Below, piece after piece: positions 5,723-54,131 of a DNA stretch of 64,000 nt. Position numbers and translations under genes: made by a program. Source of the DNA: Eledone cirrhosa (taxonomy: Eukaryota); the NCBI GenBank assembly GCA_964016885.1, contig OZ024743.1, positions 39,122,001 to 39,186,000 on the forward strand. The letters run 5' to 3'. Numbering within the stretch: the first letter of the stretch is position 1; each line of letters starts with the position of its first letter. Under the pieces are notes generated by a model. It saw only the letters and a program-made list of their open reading frames with translations. It searched no databases and had not been told where the DNA came from.

Positions 5723-8690
5723 TCATGGCCATATTACTGTCCTGCCACTTCGTGTGACATATAGTTGTGTGTTATGTGGTGTTTGCGGTGGAGGTGAATG
5801 TGGTGTTTGAGTGGGAGTGTATGTGCTAGGTATGTCAGGCAACGATCTGAGACTTTCAGAGAAAGCCTTCTTTGCTCTGTCAACGGATATTACCTTTTTT
5901 CGACCATTGACAGACACTGCAAAGTGTTTGGTTGTGTGCGAAAGACACGAAAAGGTCCATTTTAGGGTGACGTAAGAGGTCTCTTGACGGAATCATTCCG
6001 TATGAAAATGTGTGTCCACGTAGATGGGTCTGATGGGTAAGCAGAAGAAATAGATTGGTCACGAGGGTTCATTGGTGGAAGATCCGAGATATACGAACGA
6101 ATCCTGGTGACATATGATGCTGGGTCAAGATGTGATTAATCCACTGGTGCTAACATTTGTCCAGGAAGAGACAATGTGGTACCATAAAGAAGTTCAGGAG
6201 AAGAAAAACCTAAATCTGTCTTAATGGCAGAACGACAATCAAGTAGAACGATCGGCAAAAATTCTGTCCAACGTTGCGGATCAGGAGTAGCGCGAAGTGC
6301 AGCTTTCAACTGTCTATGAAACCTCTCGACAATTCCATTGGAGGCTGGATGATAGCTGGTTATATGATTGTGATGAGCTCCCAAGAGTGGTGATATTTCA
6401 CGAAATAAGGAGGCTTCAAATAGGCGTCCACGATCCGTAGTTATTTTAGTAGGAATACCAAAGCGATCAATCAATTTGAAATGAAAGCTCGGGCAACGGA
6501 CTCTGCTGTTTTTTCCACCAAGGGTATGGCTTAGGCTACCGAGAGAAACGATGGCTACAAGTCAATACGTATGTGAACCCACGACTAAGGGGCCATGGAC
6601 CAACAATATCCAGGTGAATATGACGGAAACGTGCGTCTGGCGGGCTGAATTTCCCAAGAGGAGCGCGGACATGCCGATAAATCTTAGAGCGCTGACATTT
6701 CAAAGAAGAACGTGCCCAACCGTTGATTCAACGACGCATATTTCGCCAGAAACATTGAGCCGTAATAAGCTTCACCGTGGCAGCTATGCCGGAATGCGAC
6801 AAGGAATGAAGTGCATCAAAAACGGTACGTTGATGGCAATCTGGAACAAGTGTTCTGGGTGAGCCAGTAGAAATATCGCAGAGAATTTTTCCTTCAGAAG
6901 ATGGAAGAGGTAAATATTCCAATTTGCTGCAGAACTGGTCAGAGGAAATGTCCAGCGAATCCAAAGTAGGTTGGTCAGTTGCAATAGCAACTAAATCAAT
7001 ATGTGCAGGATGCGCAAGAGAAAACACAGAAAGTCGAGATACTGCTTCCGCGGGTATGTTGGCAACTCCAGCTATATGACGAATGTCACTGGTGTACTTG
7101 GAGATCAAATCCAAATATCTGTATGCCCTTGAAGAGCGATTGTGACTGGTTTAAGGTCTGTGAATACCGTGAACTCCCGACCTTCAAGAAGATGGTGGAA
7201 GTGTCTCACAGCAAGATAAACTGCTAAAAGCTCTCTGTCAAAAGTACTGTAAAGTTGCTCTGCTGGTTTTAGTTGCCGTGAGAAAAACGCCAGTGGTTGA
7301 ACCTGGTGGTCGATTCCATGTTGCAATGCTGCTTCAACAGCATGATCGGATGCGTCAACAGATAAAGAAAGTCTCGCGTTTTCAACAGGATGGGCGAGTA
7401 AGGAAACTTCACCTATCTCACACTTGACGAATTCAAAAGACTGCAAAGCATCGGCAGAAAGTGAAGGAGCATATTTCTTTTTCGCAGTCTTTAAAAACTG
7501 TGTCAAGGGGAACAACTTGTCCGCACAGTTAGGTGTGAAGCGACGATAAAAGTTAATTAATCTCAAGAAATGACGTAATTGTTTCAGGGAGGTGGGTGGT
7601 GCGATATGCTGAATCGCTTCTACCTTAGATGGCAAATGTCGTATGCCTTCTGAGTATATAAGATGTCCAACGAATTCCTGTGAATCTGTACCAAACACAC
7701 ATTTAGCTGTTCATCCGAATCGCTGGTTATCAGGACATCATCAACGTAAGCAAACACGAAATCCAAACCACGCGTGATTTCATCTATAAAACGCTGGAAC
7801 GTACTAGGAGCATTCCGCAAACCAAAAGGCATGGACAGGAATTCAAATGAATCAAAGGGGGTGGTCACAGCTGTTTTTGATATATCCCCTGGATTCATTG
7901 GTATCTGGTGGTATGCATGTATTAGATCTATTTTGGAAAATATCTTGCATCCATGCAGAACGGATGAAAAATCCTGTAAGTTTGGTAGAGGATAACGGTC
8001 CGGCGTGGTGATGGCATTAACTCCCACAGGCCTAACATCCGCTTCACTCTTACGAGCCAGGTGAAGCGGAGATGCCCATAGGCTGGTGGACGGTTGTATA
8101 AGACCGAGTTGGAGCATATGCTCGAACGCGTTTCGTGCTTTTTTTAGTCTATCCGGAGCCAACGTTCGTGGTCGAGAGAAAACCGGTGGACAAGTTGTTG
8201 TAACAAAGTGTTGAGTCGAGTGGACTGTCTGAGTAGGTTTAAATTAAATATCCGTTAACTCGGGAAACGTAGTAACGAGTGCATGAAACTGGTTTCCAGC
8301 CGGAGCCACAAAAAATGACGGTACTGACAGCAGTAGTGGTAGATTTACGAGTAGGCGTAGATGAGGATGTGGTACTATCCACAAGTTTCTGGTTCCTGAC
8401 ATCTACCAAAAGTGAACAGTGCTGTAAGGAATCCGCACCGAGAATAGGATGAGGTAGGTCGACAATGACAAAAATCCATTTGAAATCTCGACTAAAAGCT
8501 AGGGTCAATGTTAAAGATATTTGTCCATAAGTTTTTATACGACACTGGTTTACTGCATACAAAGAAAAACCAGAAAGAGTTGGCTTGGTAGAGTTGAACC
8601 GTAAGGGCCAAATACTGCAACTTGATCCTGTGTCGACCATGAATGATTTGTTTGAAACTCGGTCTCTAATGAAAAAAGCACGATGAATCC
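5723..8690 (-). pseudogene. pol: Gypsy pol (protease, RT, RNase H, integrase), frameshifted
   Basis: FMVDTGSS (protease); PDRYPLP, FSKIDL, AYVDDVLI (RT); SVDASDHAV, YSTFDRELLA (RNase H); HSLSHSGI, TTDRG, YHPASNGIVERFHR (integrase); terminal TRSGR. Confidence 0.92.
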
Positions 8691-9232
8691 TCACGAGGTG
8701 AAGCAGGCTGGGTTTTGAAAGTAGAAGAGGCAATGACCGAATCAGCCGAGGTAGGTTCTCTAAAAAATTCCATAATTCTGTCCGCAGAGGCAGCAATTTG
8801 TTCTATCGAACTGGTGTCAACCGTATTCGCTAATATGGTTCTCACATTAGTTGGCAAACGGGAGAAGAATAACTTTTTTACGAAGGGACTGTCTTCAGGT
8901 GCAGCATCACGGAGTTCACGGATACGCCGTAAAACCTCTGTAGGAGTTATGTACCCCAGATGTTCATCCTCTAATAAGGAACGAAATTTACCCTCAGGTG
9001 ACCTACAGTTCCTATGCAGTACCTCTGTCTTCAGAGACTCGGAGGAAACGCCTTGGGGAGGGTTCTTGATTATGTGTTTTACTGTAATCGCTAATGAAGC
9101 TGGAATTCCGCTGATTCGCACGTTTAATTTTTGCTGTTTTTCCTGTACTCCGTTGACCGCAAAATACGCATCAAGCTGGTCGAACCACAATTTAGCATCG
9201 CCAGAATACGGTGGTAACGATGTGTTGCCCAT
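8666..9232 (-). pseudogene. gag: Gypsy gag
   Basis: LPPYSGDAKLWFDQLDAYF...LGYITPTEVLRRIREL...KLFFSRLPTNVRTILA, lying between the PBS and the protease. Confidence 0.82.
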
Positions 9233-9267
9233 TATAAAATTTGGTCGAGAGAGATGATTTTCTTTTT

Positions 9268-9285
9268 CATCGCGTCGGGTCACCA
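9268..9285 (-). promoter_or_regulatory. Primer-binding site complementary to the tRNA-Trp 3' end
   Basis: Minus strand tggtgacccgacgcgat, 1 nt after the LTR end. The eukaryotic tRNA-Trp PBS is TGGTGACCCCGACGTGAT. Confidence 0.8.
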
Positions 9286-9286
9286 C

Positions 9287-12277: not shown

Positions 12278-14505
12278 TTGGTAAACGGAATAGAAAATGC
12301 TGACAAATTGTTCATAGTGAAAAATAGTTTAATTAGGAATAAGTGATAATTAGTAATAGTATTGGTTAGTATTAAGTTTTGGTTTTAAGTTTTACCGGTT
12401 GCGCATTTCAAAAATAATTTTGAGATAGAGCGTCCGTGATCTTTGCTCTGATCTGATTAGTTTTGGGAATTCTACCTGTTTTTATGTTAAAATAGTGGCT
12501 CCAGCGGTATTAAAATAAGTTTTGCGCCAATTCGTGTTGCAAAAACAATTTTGATTGGTCGGTAGAGGTCATGTGATTGTGAAAAATTGATTTTGCGCCA
12601 AATGTAGGTTTGTCACGGCTGACTGAGAAATAAGTCTTTCACAACACATATGTGTGTGTGTGTGTAGTAGTAGTAGTAAAGAGGTTCGTTGTGATAATGG
12701 TCATCTGGGATGTGTGTGCGACCGCAGCCTGTTGACAGTTCAAATGCCTATTAAGACAAGTGTGTGTGTGTGTGTGTGTGTAGCCGAGTAATTGGTGGTA
12801 GAGGGATGGTCAGTAGGAATGTGTCTGTAAGTGTGTGGGGGATATTTTAACATGTTAAAAGATATTTTTTCAGCTCTTGTCTTATACGGAGAAGTGTGTG
12901 TGTGTGTGTGTGTTTGTGTGTGTTTGTGTGTGTGTATATATGTGTGTGTGTGTGAGAGAGAGAATGTGTGTGTGTGGGGGGGGGGATCGGTATTTATTTC
13001 TGTTAAAATTGTGTACCTTATTCGATATTTTCAGTAAAATCGATTTTCTCAATAGAACATCAACATCCTTAATAATTAAAGGTGTGAAATGATATTTAGT
13101 ATTGGCATAATACCAAGGTGTGTGTGAGTGTGTCCAGATTGTACGTACTGCAAGGGGGATCCATTAGGCCTTGCGCTATTGGAATACCTGTACCTGGTGT
13201 GTGTCCAGAAATGGTATACCTGTGCACACATTGCACATATGTATCTTGAGTATGTCCAGAAATTGTATACCTGTGCACAAATATGTATCTGGAGTGTGTC
13301 CAGATTGTACGTATGCAAGGCGAATTCATTAGGCCTTGCCGTATTGGAATACCTGTGCACAAATATGTATGTGCCCATCAGGGTGCAATGCATCTGTGCG
13401 TTTATGTATGTGTGTGTGTCAGCACGTTTATATCTATAGATATCAAAAGGTATGCACATTTGTGTATATTTGTGTTGTACCAAATTACTGCCAACCACAA
13501 CAACGAAACCCACAGTAAAAACATGCGATAGACCCAACTATGGCATTTGCATCAACCTAATAGAGGGTTCGGAATTCTATTTCAAAGAGGGACAACGTTT
13601 TATAGTAAAACACAATTTCACATGTGCATCGGAAAATCTAATATATGTATTAACTTGCTCAGGTTGTCGAGAACAATACATAGGCCAGACCAATAACAGC
13701 CTCCGCCAACGCAAGACTGTCCATAGATCCCAAATTAAAATACGGGAATACAGGAAAATACCACTGAGTGAACACATTGATACCTGTCCCGCCCAAAATC
13801 ATCCCAACTTCAGAATCTTTCCCCTCTACACATTTAAAGATAATGCCACCCACACCCAGCGCATCAGCAAGGAATCTTACTTTATTAACAAATACGGACC
13901 CCGTCTAAACACTTCTCCCTAAGACGAACCCACAACATACACACGTCAACATACATACCTACATCAGTGTACATCTCTACCCACATATAAACACAATGAC
14001 ATACGTAAACACACATGTTCTATGGTGCAACACAAATATACACAAATTTGCATACCTTTTGATGTCTATAGATATAAACGTGCCGACACACACACATGCA
14101 TAAACGCACACATGCATTGCACACTGATGGGCACATACATATTTGTGCACAGGTATTCCAATATGGCAAGGCCTAATGAATTCCCCTTGCAGTGCGTACA
14201 ATCTGGACACACTCCAGACACATATTTGTGCACAGGTATACAATTTGTGCACATGTATACAATTTCTGGACACACTCCAGATACACATATGGGCAAAGGT
14301 ATTCCAATACGGCAAGGCCTAATGGAGCCCCCCTGCAGTACGTACAATGTGGACACACTCACACATACTTTGGTATTATGCCAATACTATATATCATTTC
14401 ACACCTTTTATTATTAAGGTTTTTGATGTTCTATCGAGAGAATCGATTTTACTGAAAATATCGAATAATGTACACCATTTTAACAGAAATAAATAATGAT
14501 CCACC

Positions 14506-15596: not shown

Positions 15597-16450
15597 ATGC
15601 CAGATGATTGAACGTCTGAAAGTATATACTTTCCTTAGGCATATTAACGCTGAGCAGCCTAATTTGCATATCGAGTGAGTTAATCGGCCGGGCGCACCGA
15701 AAACGATAAACGGAAAAAATGAAACGAAATTTCATTTCTCACTCTTAGTACGGCTGTTACTTAAATATAAGTATGTACACGTACATACATATATGTATAC
15801 AGACGTACAGAAGTATGTATATATATATATATATATACATACATGCACACATATATATATATATATATGTACGTATGGATTCACGGAACATTTATTATAA
15901 TGCTCGGTGTGTTAGTAAACAAACATCCCGAATTAAGCCGTAGAGTGTCTAGCAACCATCGTTGCTCATTTGTTCAACACTGAAAAAGGAACGCTATACT
16001 AGTTTCAAGCTTATTAGCTATCGTCAGCAATGTATACCTTCCTGCCAGAAGATTGAACGTATGTAAGTATATACTTTCCTTATGCATATTAACGGCTGAG
16101 CATCCTAATTTGCATATCGAGTGAATTAATCGGCCGGGCGCACCGAAACCGATAAACGGAAAAAATGAAACGAAATTTCATTTCTCACTCTAAGTACGGC
16201 TGTTACTTAAATATAAGTATGTATACGTACCTACATATATGTATACAGACGTACATTAGTATGTATATATATATACATACATGCATACACATATATATGT
16301 ACGTATGGATTCAACGTGATGAACAAATGAGCAACGACGGTTGCTAGACACTGTACGGCTTAATTCGGGATATTTGTTTACAAACACACCGAGCATCATA
16401 ATAAATGTTCGGTGAATCCATACGTACCTATATATATATATGTGTGCATG

Positions 16451-16470
<20 letters not shown>
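15597..16470 (-). repeat. ~445-bp hammerhead-containing tandem repeat (about 1.6 units plus an inverted partial unit)
   Basis: The unit starting gccagatgattgaacg recurs at ~15599 and ~16044. 16320-16470 is an inverted copy of ~15820-15975. Same family as 52490-54055. Confidence 0.85.
15991..16033 (-). ncRNA. Minimal type I hammerhead ribozyme
   Basis: Minus strand acattg-CTGACGA-t-agct-aata-agct-t-GAAA-ctag-TA-tagcgt. Core intact; stem I weakened relative to the 52765 copy. Confidence 0.72.
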
Positions 16471-16504
<34 letters not shown>

Positions 16505-29288: not shown

Positions 29289-32200
29289 CCCTCTCTGCTG
29301 GCTTAGAGCAACAGAGAGGGCCAGTGGATGATGGATCAGCTGTCTCTGAGACAAATATAAAGAATGCAGTTTTGTCCTGCAGAAGAGCCATCAAAATGGG
29401 CACTTTGAATGTGAGGACTATTCGAACACTGTAGAAGAGAGAGAGGAGTTGGAACATCTGTTCGAGGAGAGTGGTATACAGATACTTGCGATCCAAGAAC
29501 ACAGGATTCTACACGATGAGCCCATGAGGAGTGTGATGATCGGGAGGAAGAGCCAGCTCACCACTACATCGGCAGTGAAGAACACAACAAATGCTGCAGT
29601 AGGAGGAGTGGGTTTTGTGTCCAGTGCAAAAACCAATCTGTTGGTGAGGGAAATAATGCCTATCTCCCCGCGAGTGTTGAGGGTGACCATCAATGGAAAC
29701 CCAAGACTGACAGTCATCTCAGCCTATAGTCCAACCGAGGGGGACAGTGATGTGAATGCCGAGGAGTTCCATGAGGAGGTGTGTAGAGCTGTCAACACCA
29801 CTCAGGCATACAATATCCTGCTTGTTTTGGGGGACTTCAATGCACATCTGAGTAAGGAGGGCAGTGAAAATCCTTGCTGGTACTTCCATAACAACACCAA
29901 CCGAAATGGAAGACTACTGAGAGACACCCTGCTGGAGGCGAACTTGATGGCGACCAACCTAAGGTTTAGGAAGAATCTGGGGAAGATGTGGACCTACATC
30001 TCAGATATGCACCTGTCCAAGTCCCAGATTGATTTCATTCTGGTGAGGAAAAAGTGGCGGAATAGTATTCTGAACACGGAACCATACAGCTATTTCAGTA
30101 CACTGGGTAGTGACCACCGGCTTGTTATGAGTGAGGTCCGCGTGAGCTTAAGAAGGAGCAAGGCTCAGCCCCGGAGAACAATCTATGACTGGGGAGTTTT
30201 CAAGGAAGATAATAAGCTACAGGAGAGGTTCACAGTGGAAGTGAGAAACAGGTTTAGTGCTCTGTGTGGAGAGTCAGAGGAGAGAGAAATTGGATGGACT
30301 GAGGAGAGTGTGACGAGGAGGTACGGGCACTTCACCAATGCAGTGGCGAAAGCAAGTGAAACCTTGGTGCCGAGGAAAAAGAACAAAGGGAAGCACGTCA
30401 GCTCTGCAAACCCAAAAGTGTGTGCAGCCAGAGAACACCTGAAAGCTGCCAGGGACCAATTCTATGCTGATCCTACGGAGGAGAGGATGGACACTATGGA
30501 GGTGATGAAGGAAGAGCTCTGTACCGCTTAGACTGAGGTCAGAGAGGAGACACTGATAGAGAAGATCAGAAGTGTGGAGAGAGCGGTTGACAGATCTGGA
30601 TGTAAGGAGAGCTGGATGATCATCAACGAGATCACAGGGAGGAAGAAAAGGTGTTCGAGTCAGATCCAGGGAACGGGGCCCGAGGATAGGAAGAGGAAAT
30701 GGCTAGACCATTTTAGGACCCTACTAGGAGAGCCACCCTCCACAGCCCAGAGCACTGGGGAGATCAGGCGGCTGTTTGAGGAACTGGATGTTGAGACAGA
30801 GCCCTTCACCAGAGAAGAGCTTCAGAGAGCCAAGAAGAAGATCAAGGAGGGCAAGGCTCATGGAGAAGATGGAGTGGCATCAGAGGTGATGAAGAGGTGT
30901 GATTTTGATGATATCATCCTGGGGTTCTGTAACGGGGCACTGGAGAAAGGAGTTGCCCCGAATCAGTGGAGGATCAGTAACATCGTCCCAGTGCCAAAGA
31001 AGGGATATCTCTCTAACACCAACAACTACCGGGGGATCTCACTGACGTCACTTGTGGCAAAGACCCTCAACAGGATGATTCTTAACAGGATCCAGCCTGA
31101 GATGGAGAAGAAGCTCAGGGACAACCAGAACGGCTTCAGAGAGGATAGATCAACTACTAGTCACATCCTGATGCTGAGGAGGATATTGGAGGGAGCTAGA
31201 GCAAAGTGCCTTCCTGCGGTCATGGTTTTCATTGACTTTAGGAAGGCCTTTGATTCTGTGGACCGTTACTGCCTGATGAAGATCTTACAGGCTTAGGGAA
31301 TCTCCAAGAAGATAGTGGACCTGATATCACTGCTCTACACCAACACCAAAGCCCAAGTCATTACACCTGATGGGATGACAGAGTTCTTTGAGATACTGGC
31401 TGGAGTGCTCCAGGGAGATACATTGGCTCCCTACCTTTTTATCATCGTAGTGGACTATTGTATGCGCCTTGCACTGGAGAAACACCAGGACTCTGGCTTT
31501 ACTGTAGCACCGGCTCAGAGCAGGAGAGTTGGGGCGAAAAAGGTATCGGATGCTGAATTTGCCGACGACATAGTTTTGGTGACAAATACAGTGAAGGAGG
31601 CAGGGGATTTGATGCGGGAGGTTGAGACTGTGTCGATGAGTGTAGGGCTGAGAATGAATGAGACTAAAACAAAATATCTGGTAGAGAATGTTGAGAAGCC
31701 AGAGGGGATCACTAATGTAGGCGGGAAGCCGCTGGAATTGGTTGAGGACTTCCTGTATTTGGGAGCAAAGATTGGGAATACGGAAGATGATGTGGTTGAG
31801 AGGAAGAGCAAGGCCTGGGCAGCGTGTCACAGCTTGAGATCGGTGTGGAAGTCGGACCTTCGTAGAGACCTGAAAATCCGCCTCTTCATTGCTGTAGTGG
31901 AGTCTGTGCTGCTGTATGGGTCTGAGACTTGGACACTGACCAAGAGACTCACTCAGATGGTGGATGGGTGCTACACGAGAATGCTGAGGATGGCTCTGAA
32001 TATTAATCAGTATACACTGAGGATGAAAAACTCCGAGCTGTATGGGAGCATCCCAAATGTCAGCTCAAAAGTGACACAGAGGAGACTGAGGTTGGCTGGA
32101 CATGCTCACCGACATCCAGAGTTGAGATTGCACTCAGTGCTCCTTTGGGAGCCCCTACATGGACACATTAGAAGAGAAAGACCAAGGTTAACATATGTTG

Positions 32201-32324
32201 ATGCCCTAAGGACAGACACTGGTCTGTTGGAGATGCAGGATATGGCAGCGATAATGAGGGACAGAGACCGCTGGAGAGAACTCGTCCATGGATCTCGGGA
32301 ATTTTACCCGCCTTAGATAGATAG
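29289..32324 (+). mobile_element. RTE-clade LINE, near full-length ORF, 5' UTR truncated
   Basis: 11-bp TSD attagtactgg (29278-29288 and 32325-32335). (ATAG)n tail directly after the stop codon. Single APE-RT ORF. Confidence 0.92.
29396..32316 (+). pseudogene. APE endonuclease-reverse transcriptase of the RTE LINE
   Basis: GTLNVRT, AIQEHR, LGDFNA, IDFILV, SDHRLV (APE); NYRGISL, QNGFR, FIDFRKAFDSV, GVLQGDTLAPYLF, EFADD, LLYGSETW (RT). The three track ORFs are in one frame separated by TAG stops, with a further stop and frameshift at ~29432-29448. Confidence 0.93.
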
Positions 32325-33469: not shown

Positions 33470-34503
33470 AAAGAATGCGACCATCCATCCCTACACATAT
33501 TTTCCTTAGAATCTCCCACCTGTCGTCCAACCAGCAAACCTTCAAAGAACATGCCGAATATTATGATGATGCACTTAGGAAGGCTGGACACCTAGATAAT
33601 ATAGAGTATATAGTCGAGGATCTCCAAAACACCCAAAATAAATCCCATAGAGGTAGAAATAGCATAGAATCACCACCATACATACACTACCCCAATAGGC
33701 ACACTAATAGTCGCACACCACCAAACAGAAGGCGATGTAAAGAGTATATATGATACAACCCGGTCTATAACAACTCTATTAAAACCAATCTACCCTCACA
33801 ATTCATTCGATTAGTTAAAACACACTTTCCAACATCACATAAATATAATAAAATCTTAAACCCTAACACTATTCGACTTTCATATTCAATCGCCCCTAAT
33901 ATTGAAAAACATATAAAAAAGCTTAACGCAAAACGGTTGTATAAACGCCTTCCAACACATAACAATACACGTAAAACATCGGCTATAACATCACAAAACA
34001 ACAAACAACATCCCGTCTTGACTAAGCGACTTCATCAACCCATCCATGCCAATACAACAACGCAAAATTATAACTGTAACTGTGTCCAACCAGGAACGTG
34101 TCCGTTGAACAATCAGTGTCTTGAACGCAACATCATATACAAATGTAATATCGAATCGGGTAGCCAGAAGTGGTATTATGTGGGGTCTACAGCTACCTCC
34201 TTCAAATATCGCCTTTATAGACATCGTTACTCGATAAAACATGAAAACCAGCGTTATGTAACAACACTCGCAGACAAGGCTTGGCAGCTGCGGGAAAATA
34301 ACCAACAATTTAACCTAAAATGGGATATATTAGCGAGGCACCTGCATAAACACGGACAGGAATTTTGTAAATTGTGTAATATGGAATTATTTTGTATTAT
34401 GAAATCCAAAAATATTTTATTAAATAACAGAATAGAGCGGTCGTTATACTGTAACCATCGCTTGAAATCTACATTTTCATATTACAAACACTACCAGGAT
34501 TGA
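33470..34503 (+). pseudogene. 5'-truncated PLE: RT thumb, linker and GIY-YIG
   Basis: IPTHIFLRISHLSS...YDDALRKAGH; *YNPVYN..KTN...HFP...NTIRLSYS; CNCVQPGTCPLNNQCL...IIY...YVGST..FKYR...CKLCNME...LLNNRIE...CNHR. Confidence 0.88.
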
Positions 34504-47199: not shown

Positions 47200-50734
<3,535 letters not shown>

Positions 50735-52402: not shown

Positions 52403-52489
<87 letters not shown>

Positions 52490-52492
<3 letters not shown>

Positions 52493-52555
52493 TATGTATG
52501 TATGTATACGTACATACATACGTACATTAAGTAGTATGTATATATATACATACAT

Positions 52556-52597
<42 letters not shown>

Positions 52598-54051
52598 GTA
52601 TCGGTTTACCGAACATTTATTATAATGCTCAGTTTGTTTGTTTGTAAAACAAACTGAGCATTATAATAAATGTGTGTTTGTTTGTAAAACAAACAAACAG
52701 CCCGAATTACGCCGTACTGTGTTTAGGCAACCACGTCACCTTTTTGTTCAACACTGACACAGGAACGATGTACTAGTTTCAAGCTTATTGTGTATCGTCA
52801 GCATCGTATACCTTCCTGCCAGATGGTTGAACGTCAGAAAGTATATACTTTCATTATGCATATTAACGGCTGAGCAGCCTAATTTGCACATCGAGTGAGT
52901 TCAGTCGGCCGGGCACACCGTAAACCATAAATGGAATAGAATGAAACGAAATTTCATTTCTCACTCTTAGTACGGCCCTTACTTAAATGTAAGTATGCAT
53001 GTATGTATACGAACATACATATATGTATACAGACGTACGGTAGTATGTATATATATACATACATGCACACATATATATATATGCACGTATCGGTTTACCG
53101 AACATTTATTATAATGCTCGGTTTGTTTGTTTGTAAACAAACCAACAACCCGAATTACGCCGTACTGTGTTTAGGCAACCACGTCACCTTTTTGTTCAAC
53201 ACTGACACAGGAATGATGTACTAGTTTCAAGCTTATTAACTATGGTCTGCATCGTATACCTTCCTGCCAGATTATTGAACATCTGAAAGTATATACTTTC
53301 CCTATGCATATTAACGGCTGAGCAGCCTAATTTGCATATCGGGTGAGTTCAGTCGGCTGGGGACACGGAAAACGAAAAATGGAGTAGAATGAGACGAAAT
53401 TTCATTTCTCACTCTTAGTGCGGCCCTTACTTAAATGTAAGTATGCATGTATGTATACGTATATACATATATGTATACAGACGTACAGTAGTATGTATAT
53501 ATATACATACATGCACACATATATATATATGCACGTATCGGTGTACCGAACATTTGTCATAATGCTAATGGTTGAACGTCTGAAAGTATATACTTTCCAT
53601 TTATCGTTTTCGGTGTGCCCGGCTGACTGAACTCACTCGATATGCAAATTTGGCAGCTCAGCCGTAAATATGCATAATGGAAGTATATACTTTCAGACAT
53701 TCAACCATCTTGCAGGAAGGTATACGATCCTGACACTGACGATAGCTAATAAGCTTGGAACTATGACATCATTCCTGTGTCAGTGTTGAACAAAAAGGTG
53801 ACGTGGTTGCCTAAACACTGTACGGCGTAATTCGGGCTCTTTGTTTATTTACAAACAAACAAACCGTGCATTATAATAAATGTTCGGTAAACCGATACGT
53901 GCATATATATATATGTGTGCATGTATGTATATATATACATACGACCGTACGTCTGTATACATATATGTATGTACGTATACATACATGCATACTTACATTT
54001 AAATAAGGGCCGTAGTAAGAGTGAGAAATGAAATTTCGTTTCATTCTATTC

Positions 54052-54055
<4 letters not shown>
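52490..54055 (-). repeat. ~445-bp hammerhead-containing tandem repeat (about 2.3 units plus one inverted unit)
   Basis: gcacgtatcggt recurs at ~52594, 53083 and 53531; ~53600-54055 is inverted. Same family as 15597-16470. Confidence 0.87.
52765..52807 (-). ncRNA. Minimal type I hammerhead ribozyme
   Basis: Minus strand acgatg-CTGACGA-tacacaataagctt-GAAA-ctag-TA-catcgt. Perfect stem I, stem II mutated. Decayed copies at 53213-53255 (-) and 53724-53772 (+). Confidence 0.7.

Positions 54056-54131
<76 letters not shown>

What the first reader, a model, noticed from the sequence alone, without database searches (positions are those of the whole stretch)
52490..54055. Dispersed ~445-bp tandem family with one hammerhead per unit (candidate cephalopod retrozyme)
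Seen: the same unit forms separate arrays here and at 15597-16470, each in head-to-tail tandem and ending in an inverted partial unit, embedded in (TA)n, with no ORF. Combining the copies gives a complete minus-strand HHR: acgatg-CTGACGA-t-agct-aata-agct-t-GAAA-ctag-TA-catcgt. The unit also has a perfect palindrome gaaagtatatactttc, a ggctgagcagcc hairpin and an ATTTGCAT octamer. Inference: tandem-plus-inversion structure is what PLE-type reverse transcription of a circular or multimeric RNA would leave, so this fits a non-autonomous retrozyme family.
Basis: partly seen in the sequence, partly recalled or inferred. Interest (0 to 1): 0.76.

Follow-up and report, generated by a model that had tools for sequence, protein, structure and literature searches.

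The report
Hammerhead-bearing Penelope-type tandem repeat family
A 446-base non-coding repeat with a hammerhead-ribozyme motif lies at thousands of places in this 3-Gb animal genome as short tandem-plus-inverted arrays next to TA microsatellites, the footprint that Penelope-like retrotransposons leave, so it is likely a new member of the known animal 'retrozyme' class; RNA cutting and RNA circles remain untested.

Summary
Both window arrays are tandem units of about 446 bp with an inverted arm and no ORF. None of the four window copies carries that majority motif whole.

The family is dispersed. Two queries gave 2,653 and 3,037 first-look candidates, on many contigs.

In 58 sampled loci the insertions have variable 5' ends and two alternative fixed 3' ends 56 nt apart. 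TA repeats follow 75 of the 84 ends at those two sites. In 38 of 58 loci two arms are joined 5'-to-5', and in 24 of the 26 such pairs whose arms both end at a fixed site, one arm uses each site. Published work describes this as the Penelope-like element (PLE) insertion signature (PMC8557442, PMC11167929).

Between subfamilies the hammerhead core never changes, and one helix I pair covaries: AU, UG, GU, UA. Rfam scores stay below threshold.

Not obtained: RNA evidence, the autonomous partner, and the host taxon.

Verdict: a new member of the known non-LTR retrozyme kind, with an unusually clean PLE-type footprint.

The parts
52403..52490 (.). (TA)n microsatellite flanking the 3' end (site B class) of the left arm of array 2
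52483..53566 (-). Left arm of array 2. Sense (hammerhead) strand is the minus strand. About 2.3 tandem units, running from unit position R257 at 53566 to R389 at 52483. The first unit carries a local hairpin duplication at about 52607-52679.
52765..52807 (-). Hammerhead copy 1: core CTGACGA/GAAA and helix I intact, helix II 5' strand mutated (TACAC instead of TAGCT)
53213..53255 (-). Hammerhead copy 2: core mutated (GCAGACCA instead of GCTGACGA)
53567..53604 (.). 5'-to-5' junction between the two arms: a short antisense piece around the GAAAGTATATACTTTC palindrome joined to the sense arm through TTCC microhomology
   Evidence: read against R
53605..54051 (+). Right, inverted arm of array 2 (R1-R439). 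Its 3' end is of the site A class and carries the terminal hairpin segment.
53724..53772 (+). Hammerhead copy in the inverted arm: 6-nt insertion before the core, with GAAA and helix III mutated
54050..54128 (.). (TC)n(TA)n microsatellite flanking the 3' end of the right arm
15598..16306 (-). Array 1, tandem arm (subfamily B): R285-446, R1-446, R1-110. The 3' end is cut at R110 against unique DNA.
15991..16033 (-). Hammerhead copy of array 1: core, helix II and helix III intact. Helix I has 5 of 6 standard pairs, 2 of them wobble.
16316..16500 (+). Array 1, inverted partial arm (R173-361), running into (TA)n at 16429-16504

Best explanation
This is a dispersed, non-coding 446-bp repeat family carrying a type I hammerhead motif, and it was most likely spread by the reverse transcriptase-endonuclease of Penelope-like elements (PLEs) acting in trans. 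That would make it an animal 'non-LTR retrozyme'.

Shown directly:
- The unit closes on itself in tandem.
- Each insertion is an arm of about 0.1 to 5 units.
- The 3' end of an arm sits at one of two fixed sites, both reading CATTTA and lying 56 nt apart. Site A is ...TTCCATTTAT at R446. Site B is ...CTTACATTTA at about R390.
- The 3' end runs into (TA)n, and the 5' end is variable.
- In two thirds of sampled loci, two arms meet 5'-to-5' with their 3' ends outward, almost always one ending at site A and one at site B.

Inferred:
- A sense RNA is transcribed across tandem units.
- A PLE ribonucleoprotein nicks TA-rich DNA on both strands and primes cDNA at the internal CAUUUA sites.
- It copies more than one unit from a multimeric or circular template and stops at variable points, often at the strong hairpin around R227-258.
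- The two cDNAs are then joined by microhomology.

Predicted and untested: the hammerhead has a 1-bp helix III capped by the palindromic loop CUAG. It would therefore cut mainly as a double hammerhead in multimeric RNA, where ACUAGU pairs with itself, and release 446-nt monomers that a tRNA ligase could circularise.
For: Family size and spread:
- Two queries gave 2,653 and 3,037 first-look candidates. All 40 scored per query gave matches, and the matches lie on many contigs.

Fixed 3' ends:
- Site A is followed directly by (AT)n in about 19 arms of the first 30 loci, whereas internal units continue ...CATTTAT|CGTTTTCGG.
- Site B was seen in 23 listed arms.
- Over 58 loci and 102 arms, 40 ends are at A and 44 at B. 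TA repeats follow 75 of these 84 ends.

Arm arrangement:
- 38 of 58 loci are head-to-head. The 4 apparent tail-to-tail cases are matches of the unit's TA-rich part to flanking microsatellite.
- By end class the 38 head-to-head pairs are AB 24, AA 1, BB 1, and 12 with one irregular end.
- 5' ends are spread over R1-R400 with a cluster at R221-300. Only 4 of 102 lie within 5 nt of the hammerhead cleavage site.
- Arms longer than one unit therefore read straight through the cleavage site, so the template was uncut multimer or circle.

Agreement with published PLE features:
- PMC8557442 (passages read) describes 5' truncation, partial tandems, an adjacent inverted 5'-truncated copy, a tail at one end only, and (TA)n targets.
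- PMC11167929 (main text read) describes internal initiation of reverse transcription at two nearby sites and cleavage plus extension of both DNA strands.

PLEs in this genome:
- GIY-YIG gave 10,596 first-look candidates. All 150 scored are over the Pfam cut-off, with open frames up to 1,096 aa.
- A 5'-truncated PLE with inverted arms lies in the window itself.

The hammerhead:
- The motif has helix I of 6 bp, helix II of 4 bp, and helix III of 1 bp plus a palindromic 4-nt loop. This is the architecture that PMC4209133 (passages read) gives for canonical metazoan type I hammerheads.
- The U-U mismatch at the base of helix II and the 1-bp helix III with a palindromic tetraloop each have a precedent in dimer-active axolotl retrozyme hammerheads (PMC7229834, passages read).
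- Across subfamilies A, B and C the changes fall on the free core position N7, on loop 2, and on pair 2.3-1.3, which reads AU, UG, GU or UA. In subfamily C a seventh helix I pair is gained.
- Of 49 fixed A-versus-B differences in 446 positions, only 3 lie in R26-166, and 2 of those are the compensating pair. By contrast 22 lie in R181-260.
- Rfam aligns the core in register to Hammerhead_HH9.

Other properties:
- GC is 0.38 and there is no ORF.
- The monomer RNA is predicted to be highly structured: circular MFE -141.8 kcal/mol, z = -8.05 against dinucleotide shuffles.
Against: - No Rfam hammerhead model reaches its gathering score. The window gave none at gathering and none among the rows listed at E<=10. 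An intact copy scores 17.6 bits against a cut-off of 52.
- There is no RNA evidence at all. The four candidate RNA runs matched only the microsatellite-like part, and the runs that hold the family are of unknown kind and are contigs.
- No autonomous partner was found. In 42 PLE loci, nothing outside the TA-rich part resembles the unit, apart from separate family copies lying nearby in 3 of them.
- Covariation rests on one base pair among closely related sequences. The alignment for one search was also pre-selected for an intact core, helix II and helix III, so the invariance of helices II and III there is by construction.
- Within subfamilies the hammerhead region is no better kept than its neighbours (1.9% against 1.9-2.1%). 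This is expected for dead copies but gives no extra support.
- The distance between the two 3' sites is 56 nt, whereas the published PLE tail is 30-40 bp.
- About 8 of 14 single arms have unique DNA at the 5' flank rather than TA repeats. It is therefore not settled whether (TA)n is purely the target or partly made or extended at the 3' end.
Confidence: 0.75

Rival explanations
1. The unit is not an independent element. It is the terminal repeat (pseudo-LTR) of a coding PLE, and the arrays are heavily 5'-truncated ordinary PLE insertions.
For: Earlier notes of this scan on other genomes ended this way (e1-7908855, e1-7812955, e1-7858566). These are unchecked leads. Family copies lie within 10 kb of a GIY-YIG ORF in 3 of 42 PLE loci, and in L101 and L102 they lie downstream and in the same orientation.
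Against: In arms longer than one unit, the tandem junction mapped joins the end of one unit (R446) directly to the start of the next (R1). Arms reach 5 units (L064, 2,240 nt; L101, at least 4.5 units) with no coding body inside. L101 and L102 share nothing but the family copies. The L101 ORF ends in (CA)n 2.5 kb and several microsatellites before the array. A profile of the unit finds no non-TA-rich similarity in the other 39 PLE loci.
Confidence: 0.08
2. It is a SINE-like element mobilised by a LINE. Twin priming would produce the inversions, and (TA)n would be its 3' tail.
For: The 3' end is fixed, the 5' end is variably truncated, and 5'-to-5' inversions with 0-6 nt of overlap resemble L1 twin priming. 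(TA)n is always at the 3' side but at the 5' side in only about 6 of 14 single arms. LINE ORFs exist in the window.
Against: Arms contain more than one unit in seamless tandem. There are two alternative 3' ends used one per arm in 24 of 26 pairs. There is no tRNA, 5S or 7SL head: Rfam gave nothing at gathering anywhere in the window. The unit carries a hammerhead. TA repeats on both flanks of many single arms argue that (TA)n is a target. No comparison with the 3' ends of the genome's LINEs was made.
Confidence: 0.07
3. It is an ordinary minisatellite or satellite spread by DNA-level processes (unequal exchange, fork stalling and template switching at TA repeats and hairpins), or a Helitron/Helentron-type rolling-circle DNA element. 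On this view the hammerhead-like motif has no function.
For: The unit is tandem, AT-rich and full of palindromes, and it sits in unstable TA microsatellites. Rfam does not call the motif. Cleavage is untested.
Against: There are thousands of dispersed loci of mostly 1-2.5 units that share the same two 3' termini, with variable 5' ends. There is no fixed 5' end, no 5'-TC or CTRR-3' ends, and the 3' end reads CCATTTAT. The arm orientation rule is strict (38 head-to-head against 0 real tail-to-tail). The pattern of change between subfamilies spares the hammerhead core and compensates in helix I. The descriptor gives 0 hits in 3.84 Mb of simulated sequence.
Confidence: 0.05

Closest known systems
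Animal non-LTR retrozymes (Cervera and de la Pena 2020, PMC7229834; abstract and passages read)
   Same: A type I hammerhead inside a short tandem unit of 150-450 bp. GC is low and there is no ORF, LTR, PBS or PPT. Copy number is in the thousands. Helix III is 1 bp with a palindromic tetraloop, as in axolotl HHR_Amex1, and there is a U-U mismatch at the base of helix II, as in HHR_Amex2. Both axolotl motifs cut better as dimers.
   Different: No RNA, circle or cleavage data exist here. Arrays are mostly very short (median arm 530 nt) and are dispersed rather than long. The main text of that paper has no occurrence of 'inverted' or 'microsatellite', so the insertion footprint found here is not described there. 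The paper does not mention cephalopods, and the host taxon here is unknown.
Penelope-like elements, insertion anatomy (Craig et al. 2021, PMC8557442, passages read; Frangieh et al. 2024, PMC11167929, main text read)
   Same: 5' truncation, partial tandems, an inverted 5'-truncated copy joined at the 5' end, an extra terminal segment at one end only, a (TA)n or AT-rich target, and two nearby internal start sites for reverse transcription.
   Different: No RT or GIY-YIG ORF is present. The whole element is one 446-bp unit that closes on itself. The segment between the two 3' ends is 56 nt rather than 30-40 bp. In vitro the anole element showed no top-versus-bottom strand difference in start site, whereas here the two arms of a pair nearly always use different sites.
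Newt satellite 2, Schistosoma and cave-cricket hammerhead satellites (review PMC6155905, passages read; PMC2837043, search listing only)
   Same: A type I hammerhead in a tandem repeat of a few hundred bp. Helix III is weak, so two tandem copies are needed to form an extended helix III.
   Different: Those were described as satellites in long arrays. Here the family is dispersed in short arrays with defined insertion ends. The octamer ATGCAAAT in the unit recalls the snRNA-type promoter reported for newt satellite 2. That comparison is from memory and was not confirmed in any paper read here.
Vertebrate non-LTR retrozymes as PLE derivatives (Li, Clavereau and Pollet 2026 preprint, 10.64898/2026.07.22.740005; abstract, section 14 and passages read; supplements closed)
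   Same: Retrozymes co-occur with PLEs, and a PLE origin is proposed.
   Different: The preprint's argument is sequence similarity to PLE terminal repeats in Xenopus, with local amplification afterwards. Here no similarity to a PLE was found, but the insertion footprint itself is PLE-like. That points to mobilisation in trans rather than local amplification only.

Membership tests
Hammerhead ribozyme, type I | Conserved core C3 U4 G5 A6 N7 G8 A9 ... G12 A13 A14, with an A15.1-U16.1 pair and a non-G residue at 17 | tested here: met
   CTGACGA (CTGATGA in subfamily C) ... GAAA-CTAG-TA is the commonest form in all three subfamilies. 70 copies carry the exact core, helix II and helix III pattern. 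0 of 4 window copies carry the whole majority motif.
Hammerhead ribozyme, type I | Three helices around the core, with helix I open-ended | tested here: met
   Helix I is 6 bp (7 in subfamily C). Helix II is 4 bp plus a U-U at 10.1/11.1, with loop AAUA. Helix III is 1 bp with loop CUAG, and ACUAGU is self-complementary (read from the sequence).
Hammerhead ribozyme, type I | Score at or above the gathering threshold of an Rfam hammerhead model | tested here: not met
   The window gave no match at gathering. The intact copy L028:1640-1770 gave RF02275 at 17.6 bits against 52, E 0.035, with the core aligned in register.
Hammerhead ribozyme, type I | Compensatory change in the helices | tested here: inconclusive
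   One pair (2.3-1.3) reads UG 12, AU 8, GU 2, UA 1 and other 3 among 26 distinct rows. The covariation score exceeded all 500 shuffles. The rows are closely related and were pre-selected for an intact core, helix II and helix III.
Hammerhead ribozyme, type I | Self-cleavage after position 17 | not testable with these tools
   Needs an in vitro transcription and cleavage assay.
Animal non-LTR retrozyme | A type I hammerhead in a tandem unit of 150-450 bp, with low GC and no ORF, LTR, PBS or PPT | tested here: met
   The unit is 446 bp, GC is 0.38, and the longest frame is 83 aa. Tandem arms are shown. PBS and PPT were not searched for specifically.
Animal non-LTR retrozyme | Unit-length linear and circular RNA in tissues | not testable with these tools
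   No RNA run holds the family.
PLE-type insertion (non-autonomous PLE derivative) | 5' truncation and partial tandem | tested here: met
   Across 102 arms the 5' ends spread over R1-400 and the median arm is 530 nt, about 1.2 units.
PLE-type insertion (non-autonomous PLE derivative) | An inverted 5'-truncated copy joined at the 5' end | tested here: met
   38 of 58 loci. The 4 apparent opposite cases are low-complexity matches.
PLE-type insertion (non-autonomous PLE derivative) | A terminal extension ('tail') at one end only, or two adjacent RT start sites | tested here: met
   There are two 3' end classes 56 nt apart. Pairs are AB 24, AA 1 and BB 1. The length differs from the published 30-40 bp.
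PLE-type insertion (non-autonomous PLE derivative) | Microsatellite or AT-rich target | tested here: met
   TA repeats follow 75 of the 84 class A or B ends. The 5' flank is TA-rich in about 6 of 14 single arms.
PLE-type insertion (non-autonomous PLE derivative) | Sequence shared with an autonomous PLE of the same genome | tested here: inconclusive
   None was found in 42 PLE loci. These are a small sample of 10,596 first-look GIY-YIG candidates.
Helitron / Helentron | Fixed 5' and 3' termini (5'-TC, CTRR-3' after a subterminal hairpin), inserted as one unit | tested here: not met
   The 3' end reads CCATTTAT or CTTACATTTA, the 5' ends are variable, and arms are head-to-head.
SINE | A tRNA-, 5S- or 7SL-derived head | tested here: not met
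   No Rfam family reached its gathering score anywhere in the window.

The most novel reading that the evidence does not exclude
The near-strict rule that the two arms of one insertion end at different sites (24 of 26 pairs) records a coordinated two-strand insertion by one PLE complex. In it, the cDNA primed from one DNA strand starts at CAUUUA site A and the cDNA primed from the other strand starts at site B. This would be a strand-specific choice of start site that the one in vitro study did not see. It would explain why PLE 'tails' sit at one end only. A 446-nt non-coding hammerhead element with thousands of young copies would then be a natural minimal template for dissecting PLE retrotransposition.
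Probability: 0.25. Interest if true: 0.7.

Novelty: new member of a known kind. Interest (0 to 1): 0.5.

Why it matters
Hammerhead-bearing tandem repeats in animals are proposed to be parasites of Penelope-like elements. So far the link rests on co-occurrence and on sequence similarity to PLE ends in a few vertebrates.

This family supplies an independent line of evidence. Its insertions carry the complete PLE footprint although no PLE sequence is present: partial tandem, an inverted arm, a one-sided terminal segment, and TA repeats at the ends.

The copies are young, about 2% from their subfamily majority. There are thousands of them, and the hammerhead is intact in most sampled copies. The family is therefore a practical substrate for three tests:
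- whether the ribozyme cuts;
- whether circles form;
- how PLE reverse transcription chooses its start sites.

Tried and rejected
- RNA evidence. The look-up of sequencing runs listed four possible RNA runs with small shares. Laid on 1.5 units, they matched only the TA/CA-rich low-complexity stretch, so they say nothing about the family. Runs X5-X8 hold 0.44-0.87 of the words but are of unknown kind and are contigs. They show presence only.
- Other organisms. Runs X9 and X10, from two other coded organisms, hold pieces mostly 85-95% alike. This hints that relatives carry the family. It was not pursued.
- Partner search, first sample. 30 GIY-YIG loci with 1.5-kb flanks were compared by blastn.
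- Partner search, second sample. 12 loci with long ORFs and 10 kb each were compared by blastn, and a profile of the unit was run over all 42 loci. Only separate family copies in L055, L101 and L102 and TA-rich matches came up.
- The L101 and L102 linkage was examined and rejected.
- Rfam on 20 PLE loci at gathering gave 0 matches.
- Host taxon. The protein-atlas search on a LINE ORF gave only 'Eukaryota' with mixed phyla.
- Earlier findings by place and by sequence returned nothing.
- Enrichment of 5' ends at the hammerhead cleavage site was not seen: 4 of 102 against about 2.5 expected. Apparent 5' ends exactly at R1 are probably an artefact of short missed upstream pieces, because no 5' end was scored in R401-446.
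- Literature. Searches for retrozymes in cephalopods found only PMC8557442, which mentions both words in other contexts. One search listed only 15 of 5,018 papers, so it is weak evidence of absence.
Full report
**1. What is in the window**

Tandem Repeats Finder reports one long-period array, 52675-53566, with period 448, 2.0 copies and 92% matches. The repeat finder adds an inverted copy. Arms 52934-53247 and 53738-54051 are 95% complementary, and 53382-53565 and 53868-54051 are 94% complementary.

The region 15598-16500 has the same layout with a 445/446-bp spacing.

To map the arrays I took a natural unit from another locus as a ruler. R is L028:1565-2010, 446 nt, ending ...CCATTTAT. Against R:
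- Array 2 is a minus-sense arm at 52483-53566 (about 2.3 units), a 38-nt composite junction, and a plus-sense arm at 53605-54051.
- Array 1 is a minus-sense arm at 15598-16306 and a plus-sense arm at 16316-16500.

(TA)n lies on both sides of array 2, and on the right side only of array 1.

There is no credible ORF.

**2. The hammerhead motif**

None of the four window copies has the complete majority motif.

Rfam finds no hammerhead in the window at gathering. None appears among the rows listed at E<=10 either (those lists were cut at 150 rows or fewer).

The genome settles the matter. In 43 hammerhead-region copies from the first 30 loci plus the window, the commonest sequence is ACGATG-CTGACGA-TAGCT-AATA-AGCTT-GAAA-CTAG-TA-CATCGT.

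On an intact copy Rfam aligns the core in register to Hammerhead_HH9, but at 17.6 bits against a gathering score of 52, E 0.035 on 131 bases. Formal Rfam membership is therefore not met.

The architecture matches published descriptions:
- Helix I of 6 bp, helix II of 4 bp, and helix III of 1 bp capped by a palindromic 4-nt loop are what PMC4209133 (passages read) describes as the canonical metazoan type I hammerhead.
- The 1-bp helix III with a palindromic tetraloop, and the U-U mismatch at the base of helix II, are each described for axolotl retrozyme hammerheads that cut efficiently only as dimers (PMC7229834, passages read).
- ACUAGU is self-complementary, so two tandem copies could form a 6-bp helix III. 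This is the double-hammerhead mode described in the review PMC6155905.

A permissive descriptor found no hit in 60 simulated 64-kb windows, and one in the real window, which is a family copy.

**3. Subfamilies and constraint**

A search with the array-1 copy found a second subfamily, B, with 3,037 first-look candidates. Its commonest hammerhead is ACGTTG...CAGCGT.

A third form, C, occurs in a 4.5-unit array in L101: AACGGTG-CTGATGA-TAGCT-AACA-AGCTT-GAAA-CTAG-TA-CATCGTT.

The differences among the three forms fall in four places:
- the free core position N7;
- loop 2;
- position 2.7, which gains a seventh pair in C;
- pair 2.3-1.3, which is A-U, U-G or G-U, with one copy U-A.

On 26 distinct rows that pair reads UG 12, AU 8, GU 2, UA 1 and other 3, and the covariation score exceeds all 500 shuffles. 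Two caveats apply. The rows are close relatives. I also selected them for an intact core, helix II and helix III, so only helix I is informative.

Between subfamilies A (14 units) and B (17 units) there are 49 fixed differences in 446 positions. Only 3 lie in R26-166, two of them the compensating pair, whereas 22 lie in R181-260.

Within subfamilies, divergence is about 2% everywhere outside the TA-rich part, the hammerhead included. This is what dead young copies should show.

**4. Insertion anatomy across the genome**

The two DNA searches gave 2,653 and 3,037 first-look candidates. 40 were scored each time and all gave matches, on many contigs. These counts are lower bounds and the two sets may overlap.

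I analysed 58 loci, 29 per query, all chosen by the tool as best matches. The sample is therefore biased towards loci with at least one complete unit.

3' ends:
- In the sense orientation, many arms end ...TTCTATTCCATTTAT followed at once by (AT)n, while internal units continue ...CATTTAT|CGTTTTCGG. This is site A, R446.
- Other arms end about 56 nt earlier...CTTACATTTA or ...CTTACATA, running into (TA)n. This is site B, about R390.
- Both sites read CATTTA.
- Over 102 arms, 40 end at A, 44 at B and 18 elsewhere. TA repeats follow 75 of the 84 A or B ends.

5' ends:
- They are spread over R1-400, with a cluster at R221-300. The strong hairpin GCTGTTTGTTTGTTTACAAACAAACAAAGC lies there.
- Only 4 of 102 lie within 5 nt of the cleavage site.

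Arm pairing:
- In 38 of 58 loci two arms are joined 5'-to-5' with 3' ends outward.
- The 4 apparent opposite cases are matches of the unit's TA-rich part to flanking microsatellite.
- Several 'single' arms also have short inverted pieces that the first mapping missed.
- Junction coordinates differ between the two arms of a pair, for example R129 and R188, or R274 and R130, with overlaps of 0-11 nt. The inverted arm is therefore not a simple snap-back copy.
- Of the 38 pairs, 24 combine one A end and one B end. One is AA, one is BB, and 12 have one irregular end.

**5. Comparison with what PLEs do**

PMC8557442 (passages read) lists these features as characteristic of PLE insertions:
- a high degree of 5' truncation;
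- partial tandems;
- a 30-40-bp tail, often at one end only;
- (TA)n as a preferred target for one clade.

PMC11167929 (main text read) shows for an anole element:
- cleavage and extension of both DNA strands;
- AT-rich cleavage sites;
- initiation of reverse transcription at two adjacent internal RNA sites, with the sequence between them corresponding to the tail;
- unprocessed RNA as the main template.

The family here shows every one of these features without carrying any PLE gene.

PLEs are abundant in this genome. GIY-YIG gave 10,596 first-look candidates, all 150 scored lie over the Pfam cut-off, and frames reach 1,096 aa. One 5'-truncated PLE with inverted arms, between (GT)n and (AC)n, lies in the window at about 12990-14500.

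**6. What follows, and what does not**

Arms longer than one unit read through the cleavage site, and 5' ends are not enriched there. The template was therefore uncut multimeric RNA or a circle. The DNA cannot tell which.

The 3' ends are fixed.

It is also not settled whether (TA)n is only the target. It is nearly universal at 3' ends, but it is present at the 5' flank of only about 6 of 14 single arms.

The monomer RNA is predicted to be strongly structured, z = -8.05. Retrozyme RNAs are described the same way, but palindromes and TA repeats explain much of the value.

**7. Rivals**

*An ordinary truncated PLE end.* This was the outcome of several similar earlier cases in other genomes (leads only), so I tested it.
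- The unit always closes on itself, and arrays reach 5 units without a coding body.
- Family copies lie near PLE ORFs in 3 of 42 PLE loci. However, L101 and L102 share only the family copies, and the L101 ORF ends in (CA)n 2.5 kb before the array.
- A profile of the unit finds nothing else in the PLE loci outside the TA-rich part.

*A LINE-driven SINE with twin priming.* This would explain the fixed 3' end and the inversions. It would not explain the seamless multi-unit arms, the A/B pairing rule, or the hammerhead.

*A DNA-level satellite or a Helitron.* Neither fits the variable 5' ends, the orientation rule or the termini.

**8. What remains open**

- No RNA evidence was obtainable.
- The autonomous partner was not found in a small sample of PLE loci.
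- The host taxon could not be established, so 'cephalopod' stays unverified.
- In the held literature, retrozymes are described for cnidarians, a mussel, amphibians and other vertebrates. Two searches for retrozymes in cephalopods found nothing specific.

**9. Verdict**

This is a real family of a known kind, and it is well supported as a PLE-type non-autonomous element with a plausible dimer-acting hammerhead. The added value is the clean insertion footprint, above all the one-A-one-B rule. None of the papers I read describes that rule for retrozymes.

Noticed in passing
window 12990-14500: A 5'-truncated Penelope-like element. A 156-aa GIY-YIG ORF lies at 13452-13922 (+) (PF01541, E 6.6e-6). 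It sits between inverted arms of about 450 bp (13000-13450 against 14020-14500), and the whole lies between (GT)n and (AC)n microsatellites. It has no similarity to the 446-bp unit.
   Followed up: partly
window 33937-34503 (+): A 188-aa ORF with a Cys-rich stretch followed by an IIYKC...YYVGST-like motif that resembles a PLE endonuclease. It gave no Pfam match at E<=0.01.
   Followed up: partly
window 48030-48322 and 49768-50060 (ORFs 47858-48337 and 49596-50075): The two places give identical tandem-repeat rows and identical frames 1,738 bp apart. This is a direct duplication of a microsatellite-rich segment, or possibly an assembly duplication.
   Followed up: no
window 29449-32316 (+) and 6136-9286 (-): The first is a LINE with endonuclease (PF14529) and reverse transcriptase (PF00078) frames. 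The second holds frames of an LTR-type retroelement (RT, integrase-like).
   Followed up: partly
L097 (plus coordinate 703, minus strand), L098:8686 (+), L041:25 (+), L100 (plus coordinate 1674, minus strand): Other hammerhead-like motifs with different stems lie near GIY-YIG ORFs: CTGATGAGTCC...GGACGAAAC and CTGATGAAGGGT...ACCCAGAAA. Other PLE families of this genome seem to carry their own ribozyme motifs. None reached an Rfam gathering score in the 20 loci L031-L050 (L041 among them); L097, L098 and L100 were not searched with Rfam.
   Followed up: partly
L101:7280-7360; flanks in L003 (about 2340-2400) and L026 (about 1290-1350): An unrelated palindromic repeat of about 80 bp (CCGACGGCAGAGCTCAAGCC...GGCTTGAGCTCTGCCGTCGG) recurs next to TA microsatellites. 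It may be another small mobile family with the same target.
   Followed up: no
L028:1000-2300 laid with runs X9 and X10: Runs labelled as two other (coded) organisms hold pieces of the unit that are mostly 85-95% alike. The family, or a close relative of it, probably exists beyond this genome.
   Followed up: partly
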